Part shown: piece by piece, positions 5,947 to 51,412 of the stretch
Numbering within the stretch: the first letter of the stretch is position 1
Layout of the letters: each line of letters starts with the position of its first letter
NCBI GenBank assembly: GCA_018645845.1
Contig: JABGVY010000132.1
Span: 1 to 54,166, forward strand
Source: Gammaproteobacteria bacterium
Lineage (GTDB): Bacteria; Pseudomonadota; Gammaproteobacteria; Pseudomonadales; Azotimanducaceae
Reading direction: 5' to 3'
DNA length: 54,166 bases
Program-made: the position numbers and the translations under genes
The notes under the pieces: model-generated
What the model was told of the DNA's origin: nothing
Seen by the model: only the letters and a program-made list of their open reading frames with translations
Databases searched by the model: none

Positions 5947-6381
5947 TTTCTAACCTGCGCTAGGAGCATCAAGTAAATAGGTAATTAAGGGTGGCGCTGT
6001 TCAAATTATTCGAGTTAAACAAATGGTTATTATAGGGCTTCTACGAACTATGGTGTACCAGGGTATTGTCCTTATAGAGTCCTAACGCGGATCATCCGAA
6101 CAGCCTGTCAATGACCGATATACCGGGGCGAAGCAGCTGCCGCGTCGAGCTCCCGGCACTTTTTGGGTTGGGGTTTTCATTTGCGGGGTGTGGTTGTTGA
6201 CACTCACGTGTCTGTGATCACGGAGACCGTGCCCTTGTCACCGGATACTAAAAATTCGCTATTGGGCGAACCAAAGCATTGAATCCAGCGCTTAAGAAAA
6301 AGGCGATGTGCACAGCAGGTAAAATAAATGAGTGGCACAGCCTAGGATCATAGCTGAAACCCTTTATATGCTATGCGGGAC

Positions 6382-6864
6382 TTATATGCGTGACAAAAGC
6401 CAGATAACACAAGCGGCAACCAGGCCCGCGCCAACAATTGAAGACAGATCAACAATATTAAGTAGATTCAACGGCTGACGCTGGGGGTTTGAGGCCAGCA
6501 TTCGGACGTTCTTCTCCTGATGTCCTATGATTTCGGTGAGTTTGTCTGCTCTCCGGCCTTCAAGACTCGCTTGCATGCACCAGAAGTCTCTGTCCTGGCG
6601 AACTTCATTGAGCAAGAGTCTCTCATTAGACAAGGTGTTTTCTATTTCCGTAAGCTTATATCTTAATAGTGCGCTTTCAGGACGCCGGGAGGTGCCAAAG
6701 GCAGTTTCGGCGTTCGATGCTTGAGGGCCAAATACGCGTATGAGTTCGCTGTTGTCTATCAGGCCGTTGTTCGCTGATAGCTGACCGTTTTTGAGATGAC
6801 GACGGATAGCGAAACGAGTAAGCCCCGTCGCTTTTGCCGCCTCAGATTCGCTGAGTAGTGTCAT
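6382..6864 (-). CDS. Hypothetical HTH protein with a coiled-coil segment and a C-terminal transmembrane anchor
   Basis: 160 aa. The N-terminus (SESEAAKATGLTRFAIRRHLKNGQL) looks like a MerR/excisionase-type HTH. A heptad-like middle follows, then the C-terminal hydrophobic stretch IVGAGLVAACVIWLL. A TATAAT box lies about 60 nt upstream on the minus strand. Confidence 0.55.
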   Translation of the reverse strand: MTLLSESEAAKATGLTRFAIRRHLKNGQLSANNGLIDNSELIRVFGPQASNAETAFGTSRRPESALLRYKLTEIENTLSNERLLLNEVRQDRDFWCMQASLEGRRADKLTEIIGHQEKNVRMLASNPQRQPLNLLNIVDLSSIVGAGLVAACVIWLLSRI

Positions 6865-7341
6865 TTCTTACCCCGAGCTCAGAAAGGAGAGAGTCTCATA
6901 TTTAAGTTTAGACTGCAATTATAGTGTTTTTTCATCTTTTGAGCGGTTAGTGGGCCTGATGGGCTTGCCTTTCCTAGGGGCATTTCATTGCTGTGATTCA
7001 ACGGAAATCACCATAGCGCCAACAGGACGGACCGTAGCCGATGCAGGTGTTTAAAGTCCCTGCAAAATAGAGGCCCGCTCGGGAAGTTCGAATACCTGGA
7101 TTTGGCCCTGGAAGCTATCGTTTGTGAGTAACCGACAATGTTCAATGTGTCCGATTATTGGGCTTAAACCCACATCTACATCACGGTTAACGGGCGGATG
7201 GCCGATTACTTTAGCGCGTTCTTTTTGTTAGTAAGCGGAAATAGTCGGAATATCGTATTCAGTGGGCTTGTGTCTGCGATCGGCCAGGCGGTGGTAACGC
7301 ATACAGCTGAAAGACTGGAACGGCCCTTTTGCTTCATATCA

Positions 7342-7587
7342 TTAAGCGCGACCGACTTGGTGTAACTGCTTCGTTAGCTGCTCTATTTCAGAAGATGCTC
7401 GTACGATTTCCTCAATCAGAGGAAGACCATCTTGTTCACAGTGTTCCTTGAGTTCGCTCAAATAGCCATTCATCCAGCAAAGTACATTACACAGGTCATG
7501 GGAAACACCGCGAGCTATATCAATATCGGGAGTAGGGGCGACCAGATGTGAGATTGGGTTTGTAGGCTGGCGTATCGCTAGGTCCAT
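7342..7587 (-). CDS. Stand-alone histidine-kinase DHp (HisKA-like, H-box) domain protein, 81 aa, with no ATPase domain
   Basis: Strong SD AAGGAGA (rc of 7595-7601) lies 7 nt from the ATG at 7587. The H-box-like segment IARGVSHDLCNVLCWMNGYL is followed by a second helix, LIEEIVRASSEIEQLTKQLHQ. A perfect sigma54 promoter lies about 55 nt upstream. Confidence 0.65.
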   Translation of the reverse strand: MDLAIRQPTNPISHLVAPTPDIDIARGVSHDLCNVLCWMNGYLSELKEHCEQDGLPLIEEIVRASSEIEQLTKQLHQVGRA

Positions 7588-7641
7588 GTGAATTTCTCCT
7601 TAAGTGTTAGTGGAAAAGTATCCTTTTGCTGTCATTAGAAT

Positions 7642-7657
7642 TGCAATCACCGTGCCA
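7642..7657 (-). promoter_or_regulatory. Sigma54 (-24/-12) promoter for the 81-aa DHp-only gene
   Basis: The minus strand reads TGGCACG-GTGA-TTGCA, an exact match to the consensus TGGCACG-N4-TTGCW. It lies inside a spurious 70-aa ORF. Confidence 0.7.
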
Positions 7658-8041
7658 GTTTTCTTTGGGTCCTTGGGTTTCCTTGCCTCGTTAGTGTTTT
7701 CGCAACCCCCGGGGTTGTCGTGACTGCATGAACGCGCTCGAATGCCGTTGATAAGATGCAATTTGCAACGATTCTTGAGCTTAATGCGAGAGGGTTTCGC
7801 AAAATACGACAAAATATGGATGGGTTGACGTTCATCCTTGCGGCGTCAGGACCGGTGGAGTCTTACAAAGGCGATGCCGAAGCCAGTCGATATGGCCTGG
7901 TGAGCAGGATGTTACTGGAGGCCGTGGTAGTTCATTGGAAGCAGAGCCTCGGGAATTTAGACAGTACAACGAAAAAAACCCACCCAGTTGTAACGCGGGG
8001 CAGGGAAGACGCCAGACCGGAAGGGCCCTTAAATATTGGCG

Positions 8042-8413
8042 TTAGGCGTTGCCATCGAACAGAACGCTAGTCTGGGTTAGAGTGAGCTTGCCTCTTATCT
8101 GTCTTGCTATCTCTACCATTTCCTCTGAAGGGATCTCTCTGATGATCTCTTCGGTTTCCGAATCCGTTACTGTGATGATTGACCGGTTGATGGATTCATC
8201 TCGCTTAAAAGATAAGTTGTTGTGTCCTAAACTATCGACCACTTGTCGTATTTCCTGGAGAGCAACCTCCACCTCTTCATTGCTTGGTGCCGCTGCTGGT
8301 GCCGCTGTGCTTTTAGTGGTGTCACTTTCAGGCGCTGGCTTCTGCACGGACTTTTGTTCATGAGTTTGGACCGGTGGTGAAGTTGTCCTAATTGAAATGT
8401 TCATGGTGTTCAT
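8042..8413 (-). CDS. flaG: Flagellar protein FlaG
   Basis: 123 aa, immediately downstream of flagellin. The C-terminal FlaG-family pattern is present (LSFKRDESINRSIITVTDSETEEIIREIPSEEMVEIARQI). Confidence 0.85.
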   Translation of the reverse strand: MNTMNISIRTTSPPVQTHEQKSVQKPAPESDTTKSTAAPAAAPSNEEVEVALQEIRQVVDSLGHNNLSFKRDESINRSIITVTDSETEEIIREIPSEEMVEIARQIRGKLTLTQTSVLFDGNA

Positions 8414-25598: not shown

Positions 25599-25684
25599 CG
25601 CTGCTGTAAATTTTGCATTTCATGTAACGCTTGCAGCCCAGTAAGAATGGTCGTTACAGCCTTCTAATGAATTCTCGTTAAGAA

Positions 25685-26164
25685 GGGTTACCAATGGTCA
25701 CAAACGGTTACTTGTTGTTCCTCCTGCACTTACCTGGGTTTTTTATAGTACCTACATGATTTATCAAACCACATATGTTTTCTCTTCCGATTTGGCCTTG
25801 GGGCCTCAATCGAGGCGACCAACAGAGTTAAGGGGCCAGTCATCGGTCTCTCTAAAAAAGGCAGTGAGCGGCAGTGTCGATATAAGTTTTGGGCCTAAAG
25901 CCGAGTGCTTTTCCTTGTTGGCAGGGGTTACTAATGGTCACAAACGGTTACTTAATGTTCTTAGTGCGCTTACTTCGGCCTTCTATAGTACCTACATGAT
26001 TTATCAAACCACATATGTTTTCTCTTCTGATTTAGCCGCGCGAATTCGCTCCAGGCGATCAAGTGAGTTAAGGGGCCGGTTATCCGTTTCTCTAAAAAAA
26101 GCAGTGAGCCGCTGTGTTGGCACAAATTTTGGATGTAATGCAGAGAGCTTCTCCCTTTTGTTGG
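25685..26164. repeat. Tandem direct repeat, 2 x 240 bp, immediately upstream of the fleQ-like gene
   Basis: The offset is exactly 240 bp. A 44-nt block is identical in both copies (25744-25787 = 25984-26027: TATAGTACCTACATGATTTATCAAACCACATATGTTTTCTCTTC). A 29-nt block has 1 mismatch (25685-25713 vs 25925-25953). The remaining stretches are diverged. Confidence 0.95.
26118..26133 (+). promoter_or_regulatory. Weak sigma54-like element in the second repeat unit, upstream of the fleQ-like gene
   Basis: TGGCAC-AAATT-TTGG: the -24 element is perfect, but the -12 element reads GG instead of GC. It is absent from the first repeat unit. Confidence 0.25.
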
Positions 26165-26203
26165 TTTTGGTTGTTTTTTTGACAGCTGAGACCTTTAGGA
26201 CGA

Positions 26204-27199
26204 TTGACGTTTAAGATGCTGGATAATACGACACGCCTTTTAGGCCAGAGCAAGTTGATGAGCGAAGTACGTAACCTCGTTGAAAAGGTTGCTGCGAGTG
26301 AAGCCAATGTTCTGATTCTAGGAGAAACCGGTACAGGAAAAGAGCTTGTTGCCCGCAGTATTCATGAAAACTCAGATCGAAAAAATGGCCCCTTTGTACC
26401 CATTAACTGTGGTGCCATACCGGCAGAACTGCTTGAGTCGGAATTATTTGGTCATGAGAAGGGTGCATTTACCGGCGCGGTCTCTGCCAGAAAAGGGCGT
26501 TTTGAACTCGCAGAAGGTGGCACGTTATTCCTCGATGAAATAGGTGACATGCCGCTCGATATGCAGGTCAAGATTCTGCGGGTTTTACAGGAAAAAGTAT
26601 TCGAGCGGGTAGGTGGAAGCAAACAGATCGCTACCGATGTCAGAATCATTGCCGCTACTCACCAAAACCTGGAGTCACAGGTTGACCGGAATGAATTCCG
26701 GAGGGATCTTTACTATCGTCTGAACGTATTTCCGATTGAAACGCCACCACTTAGAGATCGCCAGGATGATCTGCCCATCTTAATCGATTCGATGGTAGCG
26801 CAGTTTGGCAGCGGCGGTGACCACATCTCGTTTGACGAAAAATCTACTCAAGCGCTGCAGCAGTGCGAATGGGAAGGGAATGTTCGTGAGTTACTGAACG
26901 TCATCGAACGTTTATCGGTTCTCTACCCGGCAGAGATAATTGATGTCGAGCGACTGCCTGCCAAGTATCGGCCTTCAGAGCCTTGTATAGATGTCGCGAC
27001 AGAGACATCTTCAGCATTGAACGATATGGCTGAAGAGGTCGTTGATCTAAAAATGACAGTTCAGAATTTTGAAGCCAGTTTCATTCGTAAGGCATTGGAA
27101 CTTACTGCAGGCAACGTTTCTCAAGCAGCCGCTAAGTTGAGCCTTCGACGAACAACACTCGTTGAGAAGATACGGAAATATGACATCAACTTTGCGTGA
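26204..27199 (+). CDS. fleQ: FleQ/FlrA-like sigma54-dependent transcriptional activator lacking the N-terminal (FleQ/REC-like) domain
   Basis: 331 aa from TTG 26204, or 327 aa from ATG 26216. The AAA+ domain begins about 12 residues in ([40 protein letters not shown]...[15 protein letters not shown]). A C-terminal Fis-type HTH is present ([23 protein letters not shown]). Upstream sequence has stops in all frames. Confidence 0.85.
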
Positions 27200-27318: not shown

Positions 27319-28467
27319 ATGGAATCGATCAGACACCCTACACCCGAGACGAGCTATCCAGCCTGCCTTTCTGAGTCACTGGAAAAACTGCGCCAATCAT
27401 ATGATTTTGCTTCAAGAGAAATAAACGATCTGATCACGGAGCGATCCCCTCAGCAGGTCTCGACCTGCAAGCCCCAACCTCTAGCTGATAGTTTGACCGC
27501 TCTGGTGAATGATATGCCGGCGGGCGTCGTCGTGCTGGACAGGCATAACAAGGTCTTACTCGCAAACCCGATGGCAATTATGCTCTTCGAAGTACCGCTT
27601 TTGGAGAGTGACTTTTTAGAGGTGATCCAGCAGACGGCTATGAGCATTGATGCTAGCGGTCAGCAGCTCAAGCTTTGGACCGGTCGAAGCCTGTCTATTG
27701 TTAGTCATGTTCGACCAACAATGGGTGACCAAATTGTCATTCTTAATGATGTTTCGGCGATGGCAGACTGGTTAGGTCTCGAAGGCGTAGGTCAATCTAC
27801 TGCGCTCATGGCCCATCAATTACGTACCCCCCTCAGCGCTGCCATTTTGTATCTTGGTCAGTTATCAACTGAATCAAAACAGGCTGAAGTGGCGGTTGAT
27901 ACTGTAGGGAAATTAGGCGTGTGCCTGAAACAGCTTGAATTTTTCATCAACAAGCACCTGGAAAACACTCGCTGGATAAACTGTCCGCTCAAAGATCAGG
28001 ACGTGTCGTTAAAGGGCGTGCTTCAAGTGTTGGAAAAGACTTTGGCGCCCATTGTTGAAAAAAGTGGCGGCCAGTTCAGCTTGGATTTACCTGATGAAGA
28101 CTTGGTTATCTGTAGTGATGAAGATGCCCTGTTAGCCGCTTTAACCGCGATCGCCGAAAATGCGCTGGCGATTGAGGACGGCGTTAGCTGCATGGTTTCA
28201 GCTACAGTGTCTGGTCGAGCGCTTGAAATTGCCGTCTCGGATAACGGCCCAGGTATCCCTAAGGAAAACCTGTCTAAAATATTCAATCCATTTTATACCA
28301 CTCGCCAGGGTGGCAGTGGCCTGGGGCTTACAATGGCTTATCAAATCGCTCAGCGCTTTGACGGTGATTTGACCGCCAGCAATAGGCCGTCAGGCGGAGC
28401 TAGTTTTCTTTTTAGGCTACCGTTGACGAGAGTCAGGTCTTGTCAGCAATCGCCGGCAGGGAAATAG
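27319..28467 (+). CDS. fleS: Cytoplasmic PAS-type sensor histidine kinase FleS/FlrB
   Basis: 382 aa with no TM segment. H-box MAHQLRTPLSAAILYL and ATPase boxes (DNGPGIP, TTRQGGSGLGLTMA) are present. It lies upstream of fleR. Confidence 0.85.
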   Translation: MESIRHPTPETSYPACLSESLEKLRQSYDFASREINDLITERSPQQVSTCKPQPLADSLTALVNDMPAGVVVLDRHNKVLLANPMAIMLFEVPLLESDFLEVIQQTAMSIDASGQQLKLWTGRSLSIVSHVRPTMGDQIVILNDVSAMADWLGLEGVGQSTALMAHQLRTPLSAAILYLGQLSTESKQAEVAVDTVGKLGVCLKQLEFFINKHLENTRWINCPLKDQDVSLKGVLQVLEKTLAPIVEKSGGQFSLDLPDEDLVICSDEDALLAALTAIAENALAIEDGVSCMVSATVSGRALEIAVSDNGPGIPKENLSKIFNPFYTTRQGGSGLGLTMAYQIAQRFDGDLTASNRPSGGASFLFRLPLTRVRSCQQSPAGK

Positions 28468-47270: not shown

Positions 47271-48017
47271 ATGGATTTTTTAACGATTATAGGCATCGCA
47301 GTGGCTATGACGGGCATTTTTTATGGCCATCAATTGGAAGGTGGTGACGCTATAGGTGTTCTTTCTCATCCGATGTCATACGTGATCATTCTTGGCGGTA
47401 CGATTGGCGCTACCTTGACGCAAACACCACTGCCTCACCTTATCCGAACGATCAAGTTAACACCCTGGCTGATTAAGCCCCCGGCTAATGATTACCCGGC
47501 GATGATAGGCGAGATTGTTGAATGGTCGCAAACCGCCAGAAAGGAAGGTTTGCTCGCGCTGGAAGACAAACTTGAGACGGTTACAGACCCCTTTACCAGG
47601 AAAGGCCTGCAGATGCTCGCCTCTGCTCGTGAACCGCAGGCGATAAGGGCTACTCTAGAAGCGGAACTCGATGCAATCGAAGAACTGAATATGTCGGCGA
47701 GTAAGTTTTATGAAGCGGCTGGCGCCTTTGCACCGACGATCGGCATTATTGGCGCTGTAATGGGACTCATCATGATTATGTCTGACCTCACAGATCCCAG
47801 TAAGCTGGGCGTTGGTATCGCCGCGGCATTTGTTGCGACAATCTACGGGTTGATGTTTGCCAATGTGTTTTTTTTGCCGATGGGGGTCAAGCTGAAAGTT
47901 TATATCCTGGCACAGTCTAAATACCGTGAGCTCATCATTGAAGGGCTACTACTCATTGCCGGGGGAGAAAACCCGAGATTTATCGAAGAGCAATTAAGTA
48001 GTTATGTTGCTGAATAA
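47271..48017 (+). CDS. motA: Flagellar stator channel protein, MotA/PomA family (stator set 1)
   Basis: 248 aa, starting 1 nt after the fliA stop codon. It has 4 TM segments and the conserved FAPTIGIIGAVMGLI...AAFVATIYGLMFANVFFLP. Confidence 0.85.
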   Translation: MDFLTIIGIAVAMTGIFYGHQLEGGDAIGVLSHPMSYVIILGGTIGATLTQTPLPHLIRTIKLTPWLIKPPANDYPAMIGEIVEWSQTARKEGLLALEDKLETVTDPFTRKGLQMLASAREPQAIRATLEAELDAIEELNMSASKFYEAAGAFAPTIGIIGAVMGLIMIMSDLTDPSKLGVGIAAAFVATIYGLMFANVFFLPMGVKLKVYILAQSKYRELIIEGLLLIAGGENPRFIEEQLSSYVAE

Positions 48018-48082
48018 TTATGATCTCTTGTGGTGAGAAAGTTGGGCGAAAGCGCTGATGACTATTGCAATGGAAAGTAGAG

Positions 48083-49102
48083 ATGGCCAGGAAAAAACGA
48101 CCTGAAGAACATGTTAATCACGAAAGGTGGCTGATCTCCTACGCAGACTTCATCACGTTGCTGTTCGCTTTTTTTACTGTGATGTACGCAATTTCTGTGG
48201 TCAACGAGGGTAAGTTCAAAGTGTTGTCCGATTCGCTGCAAGCTGCATTTAACGACCCTACACGATCCCTGGCTCCGATACAGATCGGCGAATTAGTGCG
48301 GGCTCCAATAGATATGAAGGACAGTATTCGTGCGGAAAGCAAGCCGGTTGTCGCTGATATATCAGCGGATAGATATCTTGTTTATCATCTTCCTGAACCT
48401 GAGGACATTGACGAAATCACGGAGGAGCTCCGGGTATTGGCGGCAGAAATTGAAGAGGTGCTGGCTGAATATATAGAGCGCGGAGAAGTAAATGTCCTTT
48501 TGGAAAATCTCTGGATAGAGATCGAAATGACAGAACAAATGCTTTTCGATAGTGGCAGCGACAAGCTTTATGAATCCGCATTTCCCGTTTTGGATGGTTT
48601 GTCCGAGACGCTCCGGGAAAAAACGAACAAGATCCACGTTGAAGGGTTTACCGACAACATGCCCATCAATACCACGCGCTTTCCTTCTAACTGGGAATTG
48701 TCCGGTGCCAGAGCAACGACTGTTGTCAGGCGCCTGGAATCTAAAGATGTCAATCCCACGCGGCTCGCAGCGATTGGTTATGGCGAACATCAGCCAATTG
48801 CAGACAATACAACGATTGAGGGACGTGCAAAGAATAGACGCGTAGTCGTGGTGGTATTGGCGGAGTTTGATCGGGATCAGGAAACGCTCAATAAATTCGA
48901 AAAAGTAAAAGGCAACGTCTCAAGTACCGATATTGCAAATTACTTGTCAAACCCGAAGGACGAATCTGGAGAGGCAGTGGCAAGTGAAACCTTGCCAAAA
49001 AATCAGCCTGTCGAAATAGATCCTTCTACCAGTGAAGCCTTGCCAGCGAGCTCAGCATCTCAGAGCAACGCACCCTACCCTGCATCAGGATACTCTCAAT
49101 GA
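48083..49102 (+). CDS. motB: Flagellar stator protein, MotB/PomB family (stator set 1), with a long low-complexity C-terminal tail
   Basis: The ATG at 48083 gives MARKKRPEEHVNHERWLISYADFITLLFAFF, which contains the conserved channel Asp. An OmpA-like domain is present (VEGFTDNMPINTTRFPSNWELSGARATTVVR...AKNRRVVVVV), followed by about 80 aa of Ser/Pro/Ala/Glu-rich tail. Confidence 0.85.
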   Translation: MARKKRPEEHVNHERWLISYADFITLLFAFFTVMYAISVVNEGKFKVLSDSLQAAFNDPTRSLAPIQIGELVRAPIDMKDSIRAESKPVVADISADRYLVYHLPEPEDIDEITEELRVLAAEIEEVLAEYIERGEVNVLLENLWIEIEMTEQMLFDSGSDKLYESAFPVLDGLSETLREKTNKIHVEGFTDNMPINTTRFPSNWELSGARATTVVRRLESKDVNPTRLAAIGYGEHQPIADNTTIEGRAKNRRVVVVVLAEFDRDQETLNKFEKVKGNVSSTDIANYLSNPKDESGEAVASETLPKNQPVEIDPSTSEALPASSASQSNAPYPASGYSQ

Positions 49103-49785
49103 TCAGGAAGCTTTCTGGTATCTTGTTTTCTTATTTAGCGATGACGCTAGCGTTGGCGGAAAACCCGCCAGAACCAGAGTCCTCCTCGGACACCGTCGTA
49201 CCCATCGAGACTGTCGAAATCCGAGATGCTTCGGGGGAGCTTTTGCTGCCTGGGGGTGGCGTCTATCGCGGTGAGATCTTCGAACACATGCCTCAGGGTA
49301 AAGGAACCATTAGCTATTCCAATGGCGAACAATACGAGGGCCATTTTCTGGACGGCAAAAAAACAGGGGAAGGGACGCTGAGGCTCGTGACTGGGGATCA
49401 ACTGTCTGCTTTTTGGGTTGATGATCGTCGTATGGGGGATGTTAGCTATCGTTTCGCAGATGGCCGAGTTTATCAGGGCGAATTGAAAGCAAAAAAAGCA
49501 CATGGTTACGGCGTGATGAATTATCCATCAGGAGAAACCTATACGGGTTACTGGGCAGAGGGAGTGCGCCAGGGTATGGGATTGCTGGAGGAAAACGGTC
49601 GAAGCTTTATCGGCGCCTTTGCCAATAATCAGCGATATGGTAAGGGGTATGAGGCAGTGGCCAATGGTTCTGGAAAAGCAGTGTGGTGCGAGAATGGAGA
49701 GTGTTCGTCTTCTCTATATATCAGATTTGCCTATTTTTTATCTCGACTCAGGCTGGATAAAGATGAGGTGCCATTTAAACCCTAA
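49099..49785 (+). CDS. Secreted MORN-repeat protein, translationally coupled to motB
   Basis: 228 aa. The ATG overlaps the motB TGA (ATGA at 49099-49102). The signal peptide is MIRKLSGILFSYLAMTLALA. About 6 MORN units (Y-G-x-x-x-x-G-x-x-x-G-x-G) are present, e.g. YRGEIFEHMPQGKGTISYSNGEQ, YEGHFLDGKKTGEGT, YQGELKAKKAHGYGVMNYPSGET, YTGYWAEGVRQGMG. Confidence 0.8.
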   Translation: MIRKLSGILFSYLAMTLALAENPPEPESSSDTVVPIETVEIRDASGELLLPGGGVYRGEIFEHMPQGKGTISYSNGEQYEGHFLDGKKTGEGTLRLVTGDQLSAFWVDDRRMGDVSYRFADGRVYQGELKAKKAHGYGVMNYPSGETYTGYWAEGVRQGMGLLEENGRSFIGAFANNQRYGKGYEAVANGSGKAVWCENGECSSSLYIRFAYFLSRLRLDKDEVPFKP

Positions 49786-50492
49786 ATCAGTGAAAACTCT
49801 AGAATGATGTGCACTCTTCTGTTCTTGGCTCGACCCATGGCTGTGGCATTAGACGCTATCGGTACAGTGTCTGCGTGACCTACGACCTGTAGTCGAGAAG
49901 AAGAGATGCCTTCCTGGACCATTAAACGAGCGACGCTCGCGCTCCGCGCTGAGGATAGCTCCCAGTTAGACGGGAATATGTGATTTGAGATGGGTTGGTC
50001 ATCTGTATGACCTTCAATAGAGATAACGTAATCACCCACAAGTATCGGCGCGATTGCGCGTAACACTTCCGCGCCGTTGCCATTTAGCGCTGCCTGACCA
50101 TTAGCAAAAAGAGTGCTCCCCTCGATAATGAGTTCAATTTTTTTCGCCTGGAGGTCAAGGGTGATGTCGCTTTCGAGTCCCGCAACCTCAAGTTGCTGTG
50201 TCAGCGTTGCCATTTGTGATTGTGCCAACTGGTCTGAGGCAGTTGAGGGGTCTGTTTTCTTGCTGGGGCCGGACATTGACTCCGCGATTATTGTTTTAGC
50301 TTCGCTAAATTTTTCCGGTGTAAAAGTAGCGAAACTGGTCAAAATCACAAAAAATGCCAGGAGCAACGTGATGGTGTCGGCATAAGTTGTCATCCAGTCA
50401 TCCTCATCTCGCTCGATGGGCCTGCTATGCGAACGTATTCTGGTTGGTTTTTTCATGTTTTGGCGAGCCTTTGTATGTTGGTTCTCTGACAT
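49782..50492 (-). CDS. motB: MotB/PomB-family stator protein (stator set 2)
   Basis: The ATG at 50492 lies 2 nt after the stop of the upstream motA-like gene. WMTTYADTITLLLAFFVIL provides the TM segment and conserved Asp. The OmpA-like domain reads IEGHTDDQPISNHIFPSNWELSSARSASVARL...AKNRRVHII. Confidence 0.8.
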   Translation of the reverse strand: MSENQHTKARQNMKKPTRIRSHSRPIERDEDDWMTTYADTITLLLAFFVILTSFATFTPEKFSEAKTIIAESMSGPSKKTDPSTASDQLAQSQMATLTQQLEVAGLESDITLDLQAKKIELIIEGSTLFANGQAALNGNGAEVLRAIAPILVGDYVISIEGHTDDQPISNHIFPSNWELSSARSASVARLMVQEGISSSRLQVVGHADTVPIASNATAMGRAKNRRVHIILEFSLI

Positions 50493-50494
50493 TT

Positions 50495-51412
50495 TTATCG
50501 ATGGCTGACTAGCTGGTCTGATGTGCACAAAGACCTGAGCATTTCTTTTATGTAGGTCGGGTTGCGATTCTCACTGATCAATTCAATTGCTTTCAATTCT
50601 AATCCAAATAATTCGGTCGCTGATTCAACTCGATTTTCAAGGATGAGTGCATAAGGCTTGAAAATCAGATTAGCCAGTACGACACCGTAAAAAGTTGTGA
50701 TTAGAGCAACAGCCATGTTGAAGCCCAGTTGAGAGAAATCGCTTCCGTCCATGCTGGCCAGCATGTTAACCAGCCCAAGTAGTGTGCCCACCATGCCGAA
50801 GGCGGGCGCTGCACTCGCCATTTGTCGCAGTATGGCTGCTTCCTGATGTTTGTGGTCTTGCGATTGTTGAATCCTCCACTCCAGAGTAGTGATCAAGCCT
50901 TCGGAGTCTGTTCCATCGACGAGCAGTTGCATCCCTTCTTTCAAAAAAGGGCTGTTAACTTTTAGTAAGTGTTGTTCTAGCTGTCTTAGATCGCCTAAAC
51001 GATATAGTTTGCTCAAGTTAGCTATCTCTTTTAGGTCTAGCCCGTTCTCTTCTCGGCCAAAAAAAGCATCGGTGAGAGACTTCTTAAGACGCATTAAGCG
51101 TTGGAAGGGATTGCTCACCAACACTGCTGACAGCGTCCCGCCGATGACGACCAGTAAACCGGGAAAGTTTAAGTAAATCATGGCGTCCTTAGCCGTCATG
51201 GTGACGGCTAGACCGACGATGGCGCATCCGCTGATAAACCCTAGGAGTGGCAACGCTTTGCGGGAGCCTGACTGGTTCTCCGAGGTAAACACAGCCTTGC
51301 TATTTTCGGTCGAGCGATTGTCGCGAGGCCGCTTGGTGAATTGTTCTGCGGGAATATCCGGGACACTGGCTAAACGGTTCATGTTATTTTGCATAGAGGT
51401 CATCCAGGTCAT
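50495..51412 (-). CDS. motA: MotA/PomA-family stator channel protein (stator set 2) with a ~50-aa N-terminal extension
   Basis: 305 aa. The conserved C-terminal half is present (AAPAFGMVGTLLGLVNML...AVALITTFYGVVLANLIFKP). It is too short to be a ZorA-type protein. The true start may be an internal Met. Confidence 0.8.
   Translation of the reverse strand: MTWMTSMQNNMNRLASVPDIPAEQFTKRPRDNRSTENSKAVFTSENQSGSRKALPLLGFISGCAIVGLAVTMTAKDAMIYLNFPGLLVVIGGTLSAVLVSNPFQRLMRLKKSLTDAFFGREENGLDLKEIANLSKLYRLGDLRQLEQHLLKVNSPFLKEGMQLLVDGTDSEGLITTLEWRIQQSQDHKHQEAAILRQMASAAPAFGMVGTLLGLVNMLASMDGSDFSQLGFNMAVALITTFYGVVLANLIFKPYALILENRVESATELFGLELKAIELISENRNPTYIKEMLRSLCTSDQLVSHR

What the first reader, a model, noticed from the sequence alone, without database searches (positions are those of the whole stretch)
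7342..7657. Sigma54-driven 81-aa protein consisting only of a histidine-kinase DHp/H-box
The ORF 7342-7587 (-) has a strong SD (AAGGAGA, 7-nt spacer). About 55 nt upstream is an exact-consensus sigma54 promoter (TGGCACGGTGATTGCA). The gene lies just downstream of fliC-flaG, so it looks like a member of the flagellar sigma54 regulon.

The product is essentially two helices. The first carries an H-box-like motif (IARGVSHDLCNVL, compare AHDFNNLL of HisKA kinases). There is no sensor domain and no HATPase domain.

A free DHp could dimerise with, or titrate, a full kinase such as FleS. It could also act as a phosphatase or phosphotransfer module for FleR or CheY-like receivers, or act as an anti-kinase. 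I am not aware of a described flagellar component of this type.
Basis: partly seen in the sequence, partly recalled or inferred. Interest (0 to 1): 0.66.

Follow-up and report, generated by a model that had tools for sequence, protein, structure and literature searches.

The report
Kinase stump kept as small protein
The 81-residue gene is the front half of a small bacterial signalling kinase whose ATP-using half was cut off by a stop codon and has since decayed, yet selection has kept the stump intact, so it probably still works as a small signalling regulator.

Summary
ORF 7342-7587(-) has a strong ribosome-binding site (SD) and an exact sigma54 promoter at 7642-7657(-), and it encodes only a histidine-kinase DHp hairpin (H30-D-x-x-N34).

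Relatives in other uncultured marine gammaproteobacteria are intact 233-245-aa sensor-less kinases (DHp + HATPase_c). The window clade shares a CAG->TAG/TAA nonsense codon at the DHp/CA junction. Downstream, the catalytic-domain DNA is frameshifted (L001, L012) or deleted (window, L008).

The stump is not a dead pseudogene. Across five sequenced lineages that all carry the stop, codons 23-81 give dN/dS 0.06-0.15 at dS 0.34-0.74 for the informative pairs. That matches flaG, fliC and the next gene.

The sigma54 promoter and an upstream palindrome (TGCAAATTGCA, 7757-7767) are conserved in every family member, including non-flagellar loci. The palindrome occurs nowhere else in the window, so flagellar-regulon membership is not supported.

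The catalytic domain is also broken independently in at least two other lineages.

The most likely function is inferred, not shown: a DHp dimer that still docks the ancestral response regulator and dephosphorylates it or drains its phosphate. It is a new variant of a known kind, of moderate interest.

The parts
7342..7587 (-). 81-aa ORF. It has a variable, disordered N-terminal tail (residues 1-22) followed by a complete DHp helical hairpin (23-80) with H30-D31-L-C-N34.
   Evidence: Codons 23-81 give dN/dS 0.06-0.15 in the informative pairs within the truncated clade.
7342..7344 (-). TAA stop. It corresponds to Gln84 (CAG) of the full-length relatives and lies at the DHp/CA junction. It is TAG in L001 and L012, and all clade members also share the preceding Pro-to-Ala change.
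7595..7601 (-). Shine-Dalgarno AAGGAGA, 7 nt before the ATG.
   Evidence: The GGAG core is conserved in all clade members.
7642..7657 (-). Sigma54 (-24/-12) promoter TGGCACGGTGATTGCA.
   Evidence: The TGGCAC-N5-TTGC element lies 67-84 nt before the ATG in every family member whose upstream DNA is available, truncated or full-length.
7757..7767 (.). Palindrome TGCAAATTGCA about 110 nt upstream of the promoter. It is a candidate enhancer-binding-protein site.
   Evidence: It is present at up to 1 mismatch, on either strand, 110-165 nt upstream of the promoter in all 15 loci checked. It is unique in the window.
6865..7341 (-). Untranslated stretch where the catalytic (CA) domain used to be. A ~270-nt deletion relative to L001/L012 starts about 20 nt after the stop (junction near 7323-7326). 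The rest is partly conserved non-coding DNA that includes an invariant 18-mer at about 7183-7200.
   Evidence: In L012 and L001 the equivalent DNA still reads, out of frame, as the linker and N-box (e.g. LKRVIQNLLANACDA).
8042..8413 (-). flaG, the upstream neighbour. It is a separate transcription unit, followed by a T-run.
6382..6864 (-). 160-aa conserved neighbour with an N-terminal DNA-binding-like region. It always follows the 81-aa gene in this clade.

Best explanation
**Shown.** The ORF is the surviving DHp half of a small, sensor-less histidine kinase that is transcribed from a sigma54 promoter.
- In the ancestor of this clade a C-to-T change turned the Gln codon just after helix 2 into a stop.
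- The catalytic ATP-binding domain behind it has since been frameshifted and deleted.
- The 81-aa product, its ribosome-binding site, its sigma54 promoter and an upstream palindromic site have been kept.
- Amino-acid change in the DHp is suppressed as strongly as in neighbouring flagellar genes.

**Inferred.**
- The protein forms the usual homodimeric four-helix bundle.
- Its H-box (H-D-x-x-N) and helix-1/helix-2 docking surface are almost unchanged from the full-length relatives, so it still binds the response regulator that the ancestral kinase served.
- It cannot autophosphorylate. It would therefore act without ATP as a negative module, dephosphorylating the regulator through Asn34 and/or accepting phosphate back on His30.
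- The transmitter is closest to AtoS/ZraS-type kinases, whose partners are NtrC-family sigma54 activators. The partner may therefore be the activator that binds the conserved palindrome, which would make a negative feedback loop.

**My estimates.** About 0.85 that it is a selected, functional truncation product. About 0.4-0.45 that the activity is phosphatase or phospho-sink on a response regulator.
For: **Homology and truncation**
- Full-length relatives L005 (241 aa), L007 (245 aa) and P0010 (233 aa) are 50-81% identical over the 81 aa and carry HATPase_c at E 1e-22 to 1e-24.
- The stop aligns with CAG of L005.
- tblastn and frame translations show out-of-frame linker and N-box remnants in L012 (56% identity) and L001 (41%), and their deletion in the window and L008.

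**Selection**
- Window, L001, L008/9, L010/11 and L012 carry the same stop codon. P0006 is also 81 aa ending in RA, but no DNA was available for it.
- Codons 23-81 give dN/dS 0.06-0.15 at dS 0.34-0.74 for all pairs except two with few differences (window-L008 0.35 at dS 0.11; L001-L012 0.23 at dS 0.23).
- Binomial P against neutrality is 5e-4 to 6e-8 for those pairs, 0.009 for L001-L012 and not significant for window-L008.
- flaG gives 0.05-0.14, orf160 0.05-0.08 and fliC 0.10.
- The DHp of the full-length clade gives 0.13-0.36.
- The P0005 variant lies on at least 24 contigs from many samples, so the stop is not an assembly error.

**Conserved signals and motifs**
- The promoter is conserved, and so is the upstream palindrome.
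- H30, D31 and N34 are invariant.
- Willett & Kirby 2012 (PMC3510030): in H-E/D-x-x-T/N, the T/N is needed exclusively for phosphatase activity.

**Precedent for DHp-only activity**
- EnvZ DHp alone has phosphatase activity (Zhu et al. 2000, PMC16626, as cited in PMC8971529).
- HK853 without its CA domain has phosphatase activity (as described in PMC7005713).
- The full-length transmitter is closest to AtoS (8e-38) and ZraS.

**Independent CA loss elsewhere in the family**
- A 1-nt deletion is identical in L022, L023 and L024. L014 has two in-frame stops.
- P0022 has lost the N-box and shifted frame.
Against: - No expression, protein or phenotype data exist.
- No partner response regulator is encoded next to any family member, so the target is unknown.
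- Repeated catalytic-domain loss could equally mean the whole gene is becoming dispensable in these lineages.
- EnvZ DHp alone showed no phosphatase activity in mammalian cells (PMC8971529). RedE phosphatase activity needed ADP, and therefore a CA domain (PMC2755868).
- The invariant Asp31 is a residue needed for autokinase rather than phosphatase activity (PMC3510030). This hints that His30 may still be phosphorylated by some kinase in trans.
- The selection test uses non-independent pairs from only five or six lineages.
Confidence: 0.55

Rival explanations
1. Anti-kinase by heterodimerisation. The free DHp pairs with the DHp of a full-length kinase (an unseen full-length paralogue, or another kinase such as the FleS-like protein). 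The mixed dimers signal poorly or differently.
For: - The dimerisation helices are intact.
- Full-length and truncated types co-occur in the same samples. The chimeric contig L013 joins the two types at a shared 21-mer.
- Heterodimer-based control is known for RetS-GacS (own knowledge).
Against: - There is no significant similarity to the DHp of the FleS-like kinase of the window.
- Heterodimerisation between different kinases is described as rare (PMC8971529).
- The three genomes that carry the full-length gene show no second, truncated copy in the species-representative scan.
- Strict conservation of H30/D31/N34 is not needed for mere dimerisation.
Confidence: 0.15
2. Histidine phosphotransfer shuttle. 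His30 is phosphorylated in trans (by another kinase's catalytic domain or by back-transfer from a receiver) and passes phosphate to a second regulator, as Spo0B and ChpT do.
For: - His30 and the autokinase-linked Asp31 are invariant (PMC3510030).
- RedE is a 242-aa sensor-less transmitter like the ancestor. It does not autophosphorylate but receives phosphate on its His from a receiver (PMC2755868).
Against: - Known DHp-type shuttles keep a degenerate CA-like domain. None remains here.
- No two receiver partners are evident in any locus.
Confidence: 0.15
3. Non-functional pseudogene fragment that merely still has an open frame and an old promoter.
For: - It arose by a nonsense mutation and the rest of the gene is decaying.
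- Other lineages of the family also carry broken copies.
Against: - dN/dS is 0.06-0.15 over dS up to 0.74, equal to bona fide neighbours. There is no stop or indel in 243 nt in five sequenced lineages, while the adjacent remnant collected frameshifts and deletions of 12 to about 270 nt.
- The SD, promoter and upstream site are retained.
Confidence: 0.07

Closest known systems
Isolated DHp domains of HisKA kinases studied in vitro (EnvZ domain A; HK853 lacking its CA domain)
   Same: The content is the same: a two-helix DHp with H-E/D-x-x-T/N and no catalytic domain. Both were reported to keep response-regulator phosphatase activity (PMC16626 as cited in PMC8971529; PMC7005713).
   Different: Those are laboratory truncations. 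This one is a natural allele, fixed and kept by selection, with its own sigma54 promoter. No activity has been measured here.
RedE of Myxococcus xanthus (242-aa sensor-less transmitter)
   Same: The full-length relatives have the same architecture and size, with the His near the N-terminus (His24 against His30-32). RedE works as a regulator phosphatase and His phospho-acceptor rather than as an autokinase (PMC2755868).
   Different: RedE keeps its HATPase_c domain and needs ADP for phosphatase activity. No sequence relationship beyond the general kinase fold was tested or seen.
AtoS / ZraS-type transmitters (partners are NtrC-family sigma54 activators)
   Same: These are the best profile matches of the full-length family: NCBIfam AtoS E 8e-38 and ZraS 6e-29; PDB ZraS 9jfj E 5e-27, covering both the H-box and the CA domain.
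   Different: Scores are far below the equivalog cut-offs. The family has no sensor, HAMP or PAS domain, and the window protein has no CA domain.
Spo0B / ChpT histidine phosphotransferases
   Same: They are kinase-derived DHp dimers that no longer autophosphorylate.
   Different: They retain a C-terminal pseudo-CA domain and sit in defined phosphorelays. Nothing of that remains here, and no sequence match was found.
RocA pseudokinase of group A Streptococcus
   Same: It is a kinase homologue without kinase activity that modulates a two-component system. A form lacking the CA domain can still complement when over-expressed (PMC7028121).
   Different: RocA is a membrane protein acting on the kinase CovS, and its His is dispensable. 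Here the protein is soluble and its His is invariant.

Membership tests
HisKA-type DHp domain (Pfam PF00512) | Profile match at or above the Pfam gathering score | tested here: not met
   The ORF scores 16.7 bits against a cut-off of 26.9, E 0.0075, over residues 25-80 and profile positions 6-62. The full-length relatives are also sub-threshold: P0010 19.1 bits and P0009 23.9 bits.
HisKA-type DHp domain (Pfam PF00512) | Homology to the DHp of proteins that are demonstrably DHp + HATPase_c transmitters | tested here: met
   The ORF is 71-81% identical to L005 and L007 and 50% to P0010, all with HATPase_c at E 1e-22 or better. The family profile aligns from before the H-box to the end of the CA domain with ZraS, KinB and CckA structures.
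HisKA-type DHp domain (Pfam PF00512) | H-box motif H-E/D-x-x-T/N on helix 1 of a two-helix hairpin | tested here: met
   H30-D31-L-C-N34 is invariant in 9 sequences. AlphaFold gives helices 20-53 and 58-80 with core pLDDT above 90. Foldseek gives only non-significant helical-hairpin matches; the kinase-regulator complex 6lgq_C is rank 2 at E 1.4.
HisKA-type DHp domain (Pfam PF00512) | Homodimeric four-helix bundle | not testable with these tools
   No multimer prediction or experiment was available.
Functional histidine kinase (DHp + CA) | HATPase_c domain with N, G1, F and G2 boxes | tested here: not met
   The ORF stops at the DHp/CA junction. Downstream DNA holds at most out-of-frame remnants in relatives and a ~270-nt deletion in the window.
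Spo0B/ChpT-type or Hpt-type phosphotransferases | Pseudo-CA domain after the DHp (Spo0B/ChpT) or a monomeric four-helix Hpt fold | tested here: not met
   There are no Pfam hits other than HisKA, only two helices are predicted, and no PDB sequence match was found.
Flagellar sigma54 regulon | Sigma54 promoter | tested here: met
   Exact TGGCAC-N5-TTGCA at 7642-7657.
Flagellar sigma54 regulon | Activator site shared with other flagellar sigma54 promoters, or linkage to flagellar genes throughout the family | tested here: not met
   The conserved palindrome occurs once in the 54-kb flagellar cluster. Full-length members with the same promoter and palindrome lie between FAD-oxidoreductase genes or next to an HDOD gene.
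Flagellar sigma54 regulon | Dependence on FleQ/FleR-type activators | not testable with these tools
   This needs expression data in mutants.
Pseudogene | Disrupted relative to intact homologues | tested here: met
   A nonsense codon stands in place of CAG, and the 3' two-thirds of the gene are lost.
Pseudogene | Neutral evolution of what remains (dN/dS near 1, with indels and stops) | tested here: not met
   dN/dS is 0.06-0.15 in the informative pairs, with no indel or stop in five sequenced lineages.

The most novel reading that the evidence does not exclude
A family of sensor-less, sigma54-controlled histidine kinases repeatedly sheds its ATP-binding domain. In at least one widespread marine lineage the leftover free-standing DHp has been fixed as a new kind of small regulator. 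It would be a natural 'phosphatase-only' or phospho-sink module, possibly closing a negative feedback loop on the sigma54 activator that drives its own promoter.
Probability: 0.35. Interest if true: 0.65.

Novelty: new variant of a known kind. Interest (0 to 1): 0.5.

Why it matters
If the stump is active, it shows a simple evolutionary route from a bifunctional kinase to a dedicated negative regulator. One nonsense mutation at a domain boundary would be enough, after which selection keeps only the half that touches the response regulator.

It would also be a natural test of a long-debated question: whether a DHp alone is a competent phosphatase in cells.

It is a caution for annotation as well. 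The gene would normally be called 'hypothetical protein' or discarded as a pseudogene fragment.

Tried and rejected
- **PDB sequence search with the 81 aa:** only chance hits, E 0.35 or worse.
- **Foldseek of the model:** generic helical hairpins, nothing significant.
- **NCBIfam:** no hit for the 81 aa.
- **Rfam:** nothing in 6300-8100 at E up to 1, and nothing in the whole window at gathering score.
- **Similarity to the FleS-like kinase of the window (27319-28467):** none in the DHp. Only the CA domains of FleS and the full-length relative align, at 25% identity.
- **Intrinsic terminator after the ORF:** none found on the minus strand.
- **Opposite-strand 55-aa ORF 7198-7365(+):** considered as an explanation for the downstream conservation. 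Rejected as a gene because dN/dS is 0.5-0.8 and it is frameshifted in L001.
- **P0007/L013 as an evolutionary intermediate** (N-terminus like the full-length clade, C-terminus like the window): rejected. The 728-bp, 0.84x contig switches parent exactly at a shared 21-mer, so it is most likely an assembly chimera.
- **Compositional island signature around the gene:** none.
- **Search for the palindrome near other sigma54 sites of the window:** none.
- **Species-representative genome scan:** no genome carries the truncated type, so I could not test whether the window organism also has a full-length paralogue.

Full report
**1. The observation**

ORF 7342-7587(-) starts with ATG and encodes 81 aa. 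AAGGAGA lies at 7595-7601, 7 nt before the start. TGGCACGGTGATTGCA at 7642-7657(-) matches TGGCAC-N5-TTGCW exactly. The window holds 15 such sites at up to 1 mismatch, against 2.3 +/- 1.4 in shuffles, as expected for a sigma54-dependent flagellar cluster.

The upstream genes on the same strand are fliD, fliS, fliT, a tPilZ protein, fliC and flaG. The window also encodes:
- FlgA/M/N
- an AAA+/HTH-only activator
- a FleS-like kinase and a FleR-like regulator
- FlhF, FleN and FliA
- two MotAB pairs

FlhA is 73% identical to proteins of uncultured 'Pseudomonadales' MAGs and 66% to Porticoccus, so the organism is an uncultured marine gammaproteobacterium.

**2. The product is a DHp**

The ORF alone gives only a sub-threshold HisKA hit (E 0.0075, 16.7 bits against 26.9). 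It has no PDB sequence match. AlphaFold predicts a disordered tail and two helices, 20-53 and 58-80, with core pLDDT above 90. Foldseek finds only generic hairpins.

The decisive evidence is homology. A scan of species-representative genomes found three loci (L005, L006, L007) whose products are 71-81% identical over the 81 aa. Those products continue for another 160 aa into a HATPase_c domain (E 1e-22 to 1e-24). An exhaustive profile search added P0010, which is 233 aa, 50% identical and has the same architecture.

A profile of the full-length proteins aligns from before the H-box to the end of the CA domain with ZraS, KinB and CckA structures. The best NCBIfam matches are AtoS and ZraS. H30-D31-x-x-N34 fits the HisKA motif H-E/D-x-x-T/N (PMC3510030).

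**3. How the 81-aa gene arose**

The locus was aligned with L005. The stop (TAA here, TAG in L001 and L012) replaces CAG, the Gln codon two residues after the end of helix 2. The preceding Pro-to-Ala change is shared by all truncated sequences.

Just after the stop, L012, L001 and L010 still read in frame as ...ISMG..., against ...INMGELL... in the full-length proteins. After frameshifts, L012 reads AEFVGNLFHDISTTLNVDSGSTVIGHEYTLKRVIQNLLANACDA, and L001 reads ...LKKAIQNPLANACDAMHQTGTIA. These are the linker and N-box of the lost CA domain. The remnants carry 1-, 2-, 12- and roughly 28-nt indels. The window and L008 have lost about 270 nt of this stretch. The G1 and G2 boxes are not recognisable anywhere.

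**4. The stump is under selection**

Six variants are all exactly 81 aa ending in RA: window/P0001, P0002, P0003, P0004, P0005 and P0006. They lie in the same place, flaG - 81-aa gene - orf160 - orf243. P0005 alone is on at least 24 contigs from many samples.

Among the five with DNA:

| Region | dN/dS | Notes |
|---|---|---|
| 81-aa ORF, codons 23-81 | 0.06-0.15 | dS 0.34-0.74; binomial P against neutrality 5e-4 to 6e-8 |
| Same, window-L008 | 0.35 | dS 0.11, too few differences to test |
| Same, L001-L012 | 0.23 | dS 0.23, P 0.009 |
| 81-aa ORF, codons 1-22 (variable tail) | about 0.1-1.5 | |
| flaG | 0.05-0.14 | |
| orf160 | 0.05-0.08 | |
| fliC | 0.10 | |
| DHp of the intact clade | 0.13-0.36 | |

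The remnant DNA diverges at about the synonymous rate and accumulates indels. The stop is shared, so this divergence post-dates the truncation. A dead fragment would not look like this.

**5. Regulation**

TGGCAC-N5-TTGC lies 67-84 nt before the ATG in every member whose upstream DNA is available, truncated or intact, including the 50%-identical P0010 clade.

The palindrome TGCAAATTGCA lies 110-165 nt further upstream. It is present at up to 1 mismatch, on either strand, in all 15 loci checked; L015 and L017 have three copies at up to 2 mismatches. My estimate of the chance expectation is about 0.01 per locus.

In the window the palindrome occurs only at 7757-7767. Intact members sit between FAD-dependent oxidoreductase genes (L005, L019-L023) or next to an HDOD gene (L015-17), not in flagellar clusters. 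The sigma54 control is therefore a family trait with its own activator site. Membership of the flagellar regulon is not supported, although it is not excluded.

**6. Catalytic-domain loss recurs**

- L022, L023 and L024 come from three assemblies and are identical. All carry a 1-nt deletion between the N-box and the G1 box. L018 carries the same deletion plus another.
- P0022 has lost the N-box and shifted frame.
- L014 has TAA at codon 87, three codons after the window clade's stop and again in the DHp/CA linker. It also has TGG-to-TGA in the CA domain.

These events look recent and cannot be tested for selection.

**7. Mechanism (inferred)**

The DHp is almost unchanged from the intact relatives: DIARGVSHDLCNVLCWMNGYL is identical. 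It should therefore still dimerise and dock the same response regulator, but it cannot autophosphorylate.

DHp-only EnvZ and HK853 were reported to dephosphorylate their regulators (PMC16626 via PMC8971529; PMC7005713). The T/N of the motif is the phosphatase residue (PMC3510030). RedE, a 242-aa sensor-less transmitter like the ancestor, works as a phosphatase and His phospho-acceptor rather than as an autokinase (PMC2755868).

I therefore favour a phosphatase or phospho-sink role on the ancestral partner. That partner is possibly an NtrC-type activator, given the AtoS/ZraS affinity, which would give negative feedback.

Points against this reading:
- No partner is encoded nearby.
- EnvZ DHp alone was inactive in mammalian cells (PMC8971529).
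- RedE needs ADP.
- The invariant Asp31 hints at phosphorylation in trans.

The rivals are heterodimeric anti-kinase, phosphotransfer shuttle and plain pseudogene.

**8. Novelty**

The parts are known: DHp, sigma54 promoter, pseudokinases and laboratory DHp truncations. I found no described natural, free-standing, selected DHp of this kind in the literature searches. The family has no names in any source. I rate it a new variant of a known kind, of moderate interest. The main limits are the lack of a partner and the uncultured host.

Noticed in passing
window 25674-26153: A tandem direct repeat of 2 x 240 nt (79% identical) lies just upstream of a sigma54 activator gene that has only AAA+ and HTH domains (likely start near 26234, 'MLDNTTRL'). 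The 152-aa ORF 25756-26214 is probably a spurious reading of the repeat. There is no Rfam match.
   Followed up: partly
window 6382-6864 (-): This 160-aa protein always follows the 81-aa gene in this clade. It has a weak, sub-threshold match to a plasmid-replication DNA-binding protein family (NF038291, E 3e-11) and no Pfam hit. Its function and any link to the DHp gene are unknown.
   Followed up: partly
window 7342-8413 versus L008: Between the window and L008, flaG has dS 0.71, but the 81-aa gene has dS 0.09 and orf160 has dS 0.05. This suggests a recombination breakpoint between flaG and the 81-aa gene.
   Followed up: no
window 7165-7325, e.g. CATCCGCCCGTTAACCGT at about 7183-7200 (-): Blocks of the decayed region downstream of the stop are much better conserved across four lineages than the DNA around them. 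The opposite-strand 55-aa ORF 7198-7365(+) does not explain this, because its dN/dS is 0.5-0.8 and it is frameshifted in L001.
   Followed up: partly
L022-L024 and L018 (P0023/P0009 lineage): The 1-nt deletion that breaks the CA domain lies 8 nt before an A8 run (A7 in L018). Whether slippage there could restore the frame was not examined.
   Followed up: no
L013 (P0007): This 728-bp, 0.84x-coverage contig is identical to the full-length clade on its 5' side and to the window clade on its 3' side, switching at a shared 21-mer. It is probably an assembly chimera. It shows that both gene types occur in one sample.
   Followed up: yes
window 47271-51412: Two MotA/MotB pairs on opposite strands flank a MORN-repeat protein (49099-49785).
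   Followed up: no
window 6915-6935 (-): CTATAATTGCAGTCTAA is conserved about 50-110 nt upstream of orf160 in all four lineages. It looks like a -10 element, so orf160 may have its own sigma70 promoter rather than being co-transcribed with the 81-aa gene.
   Followed up: no
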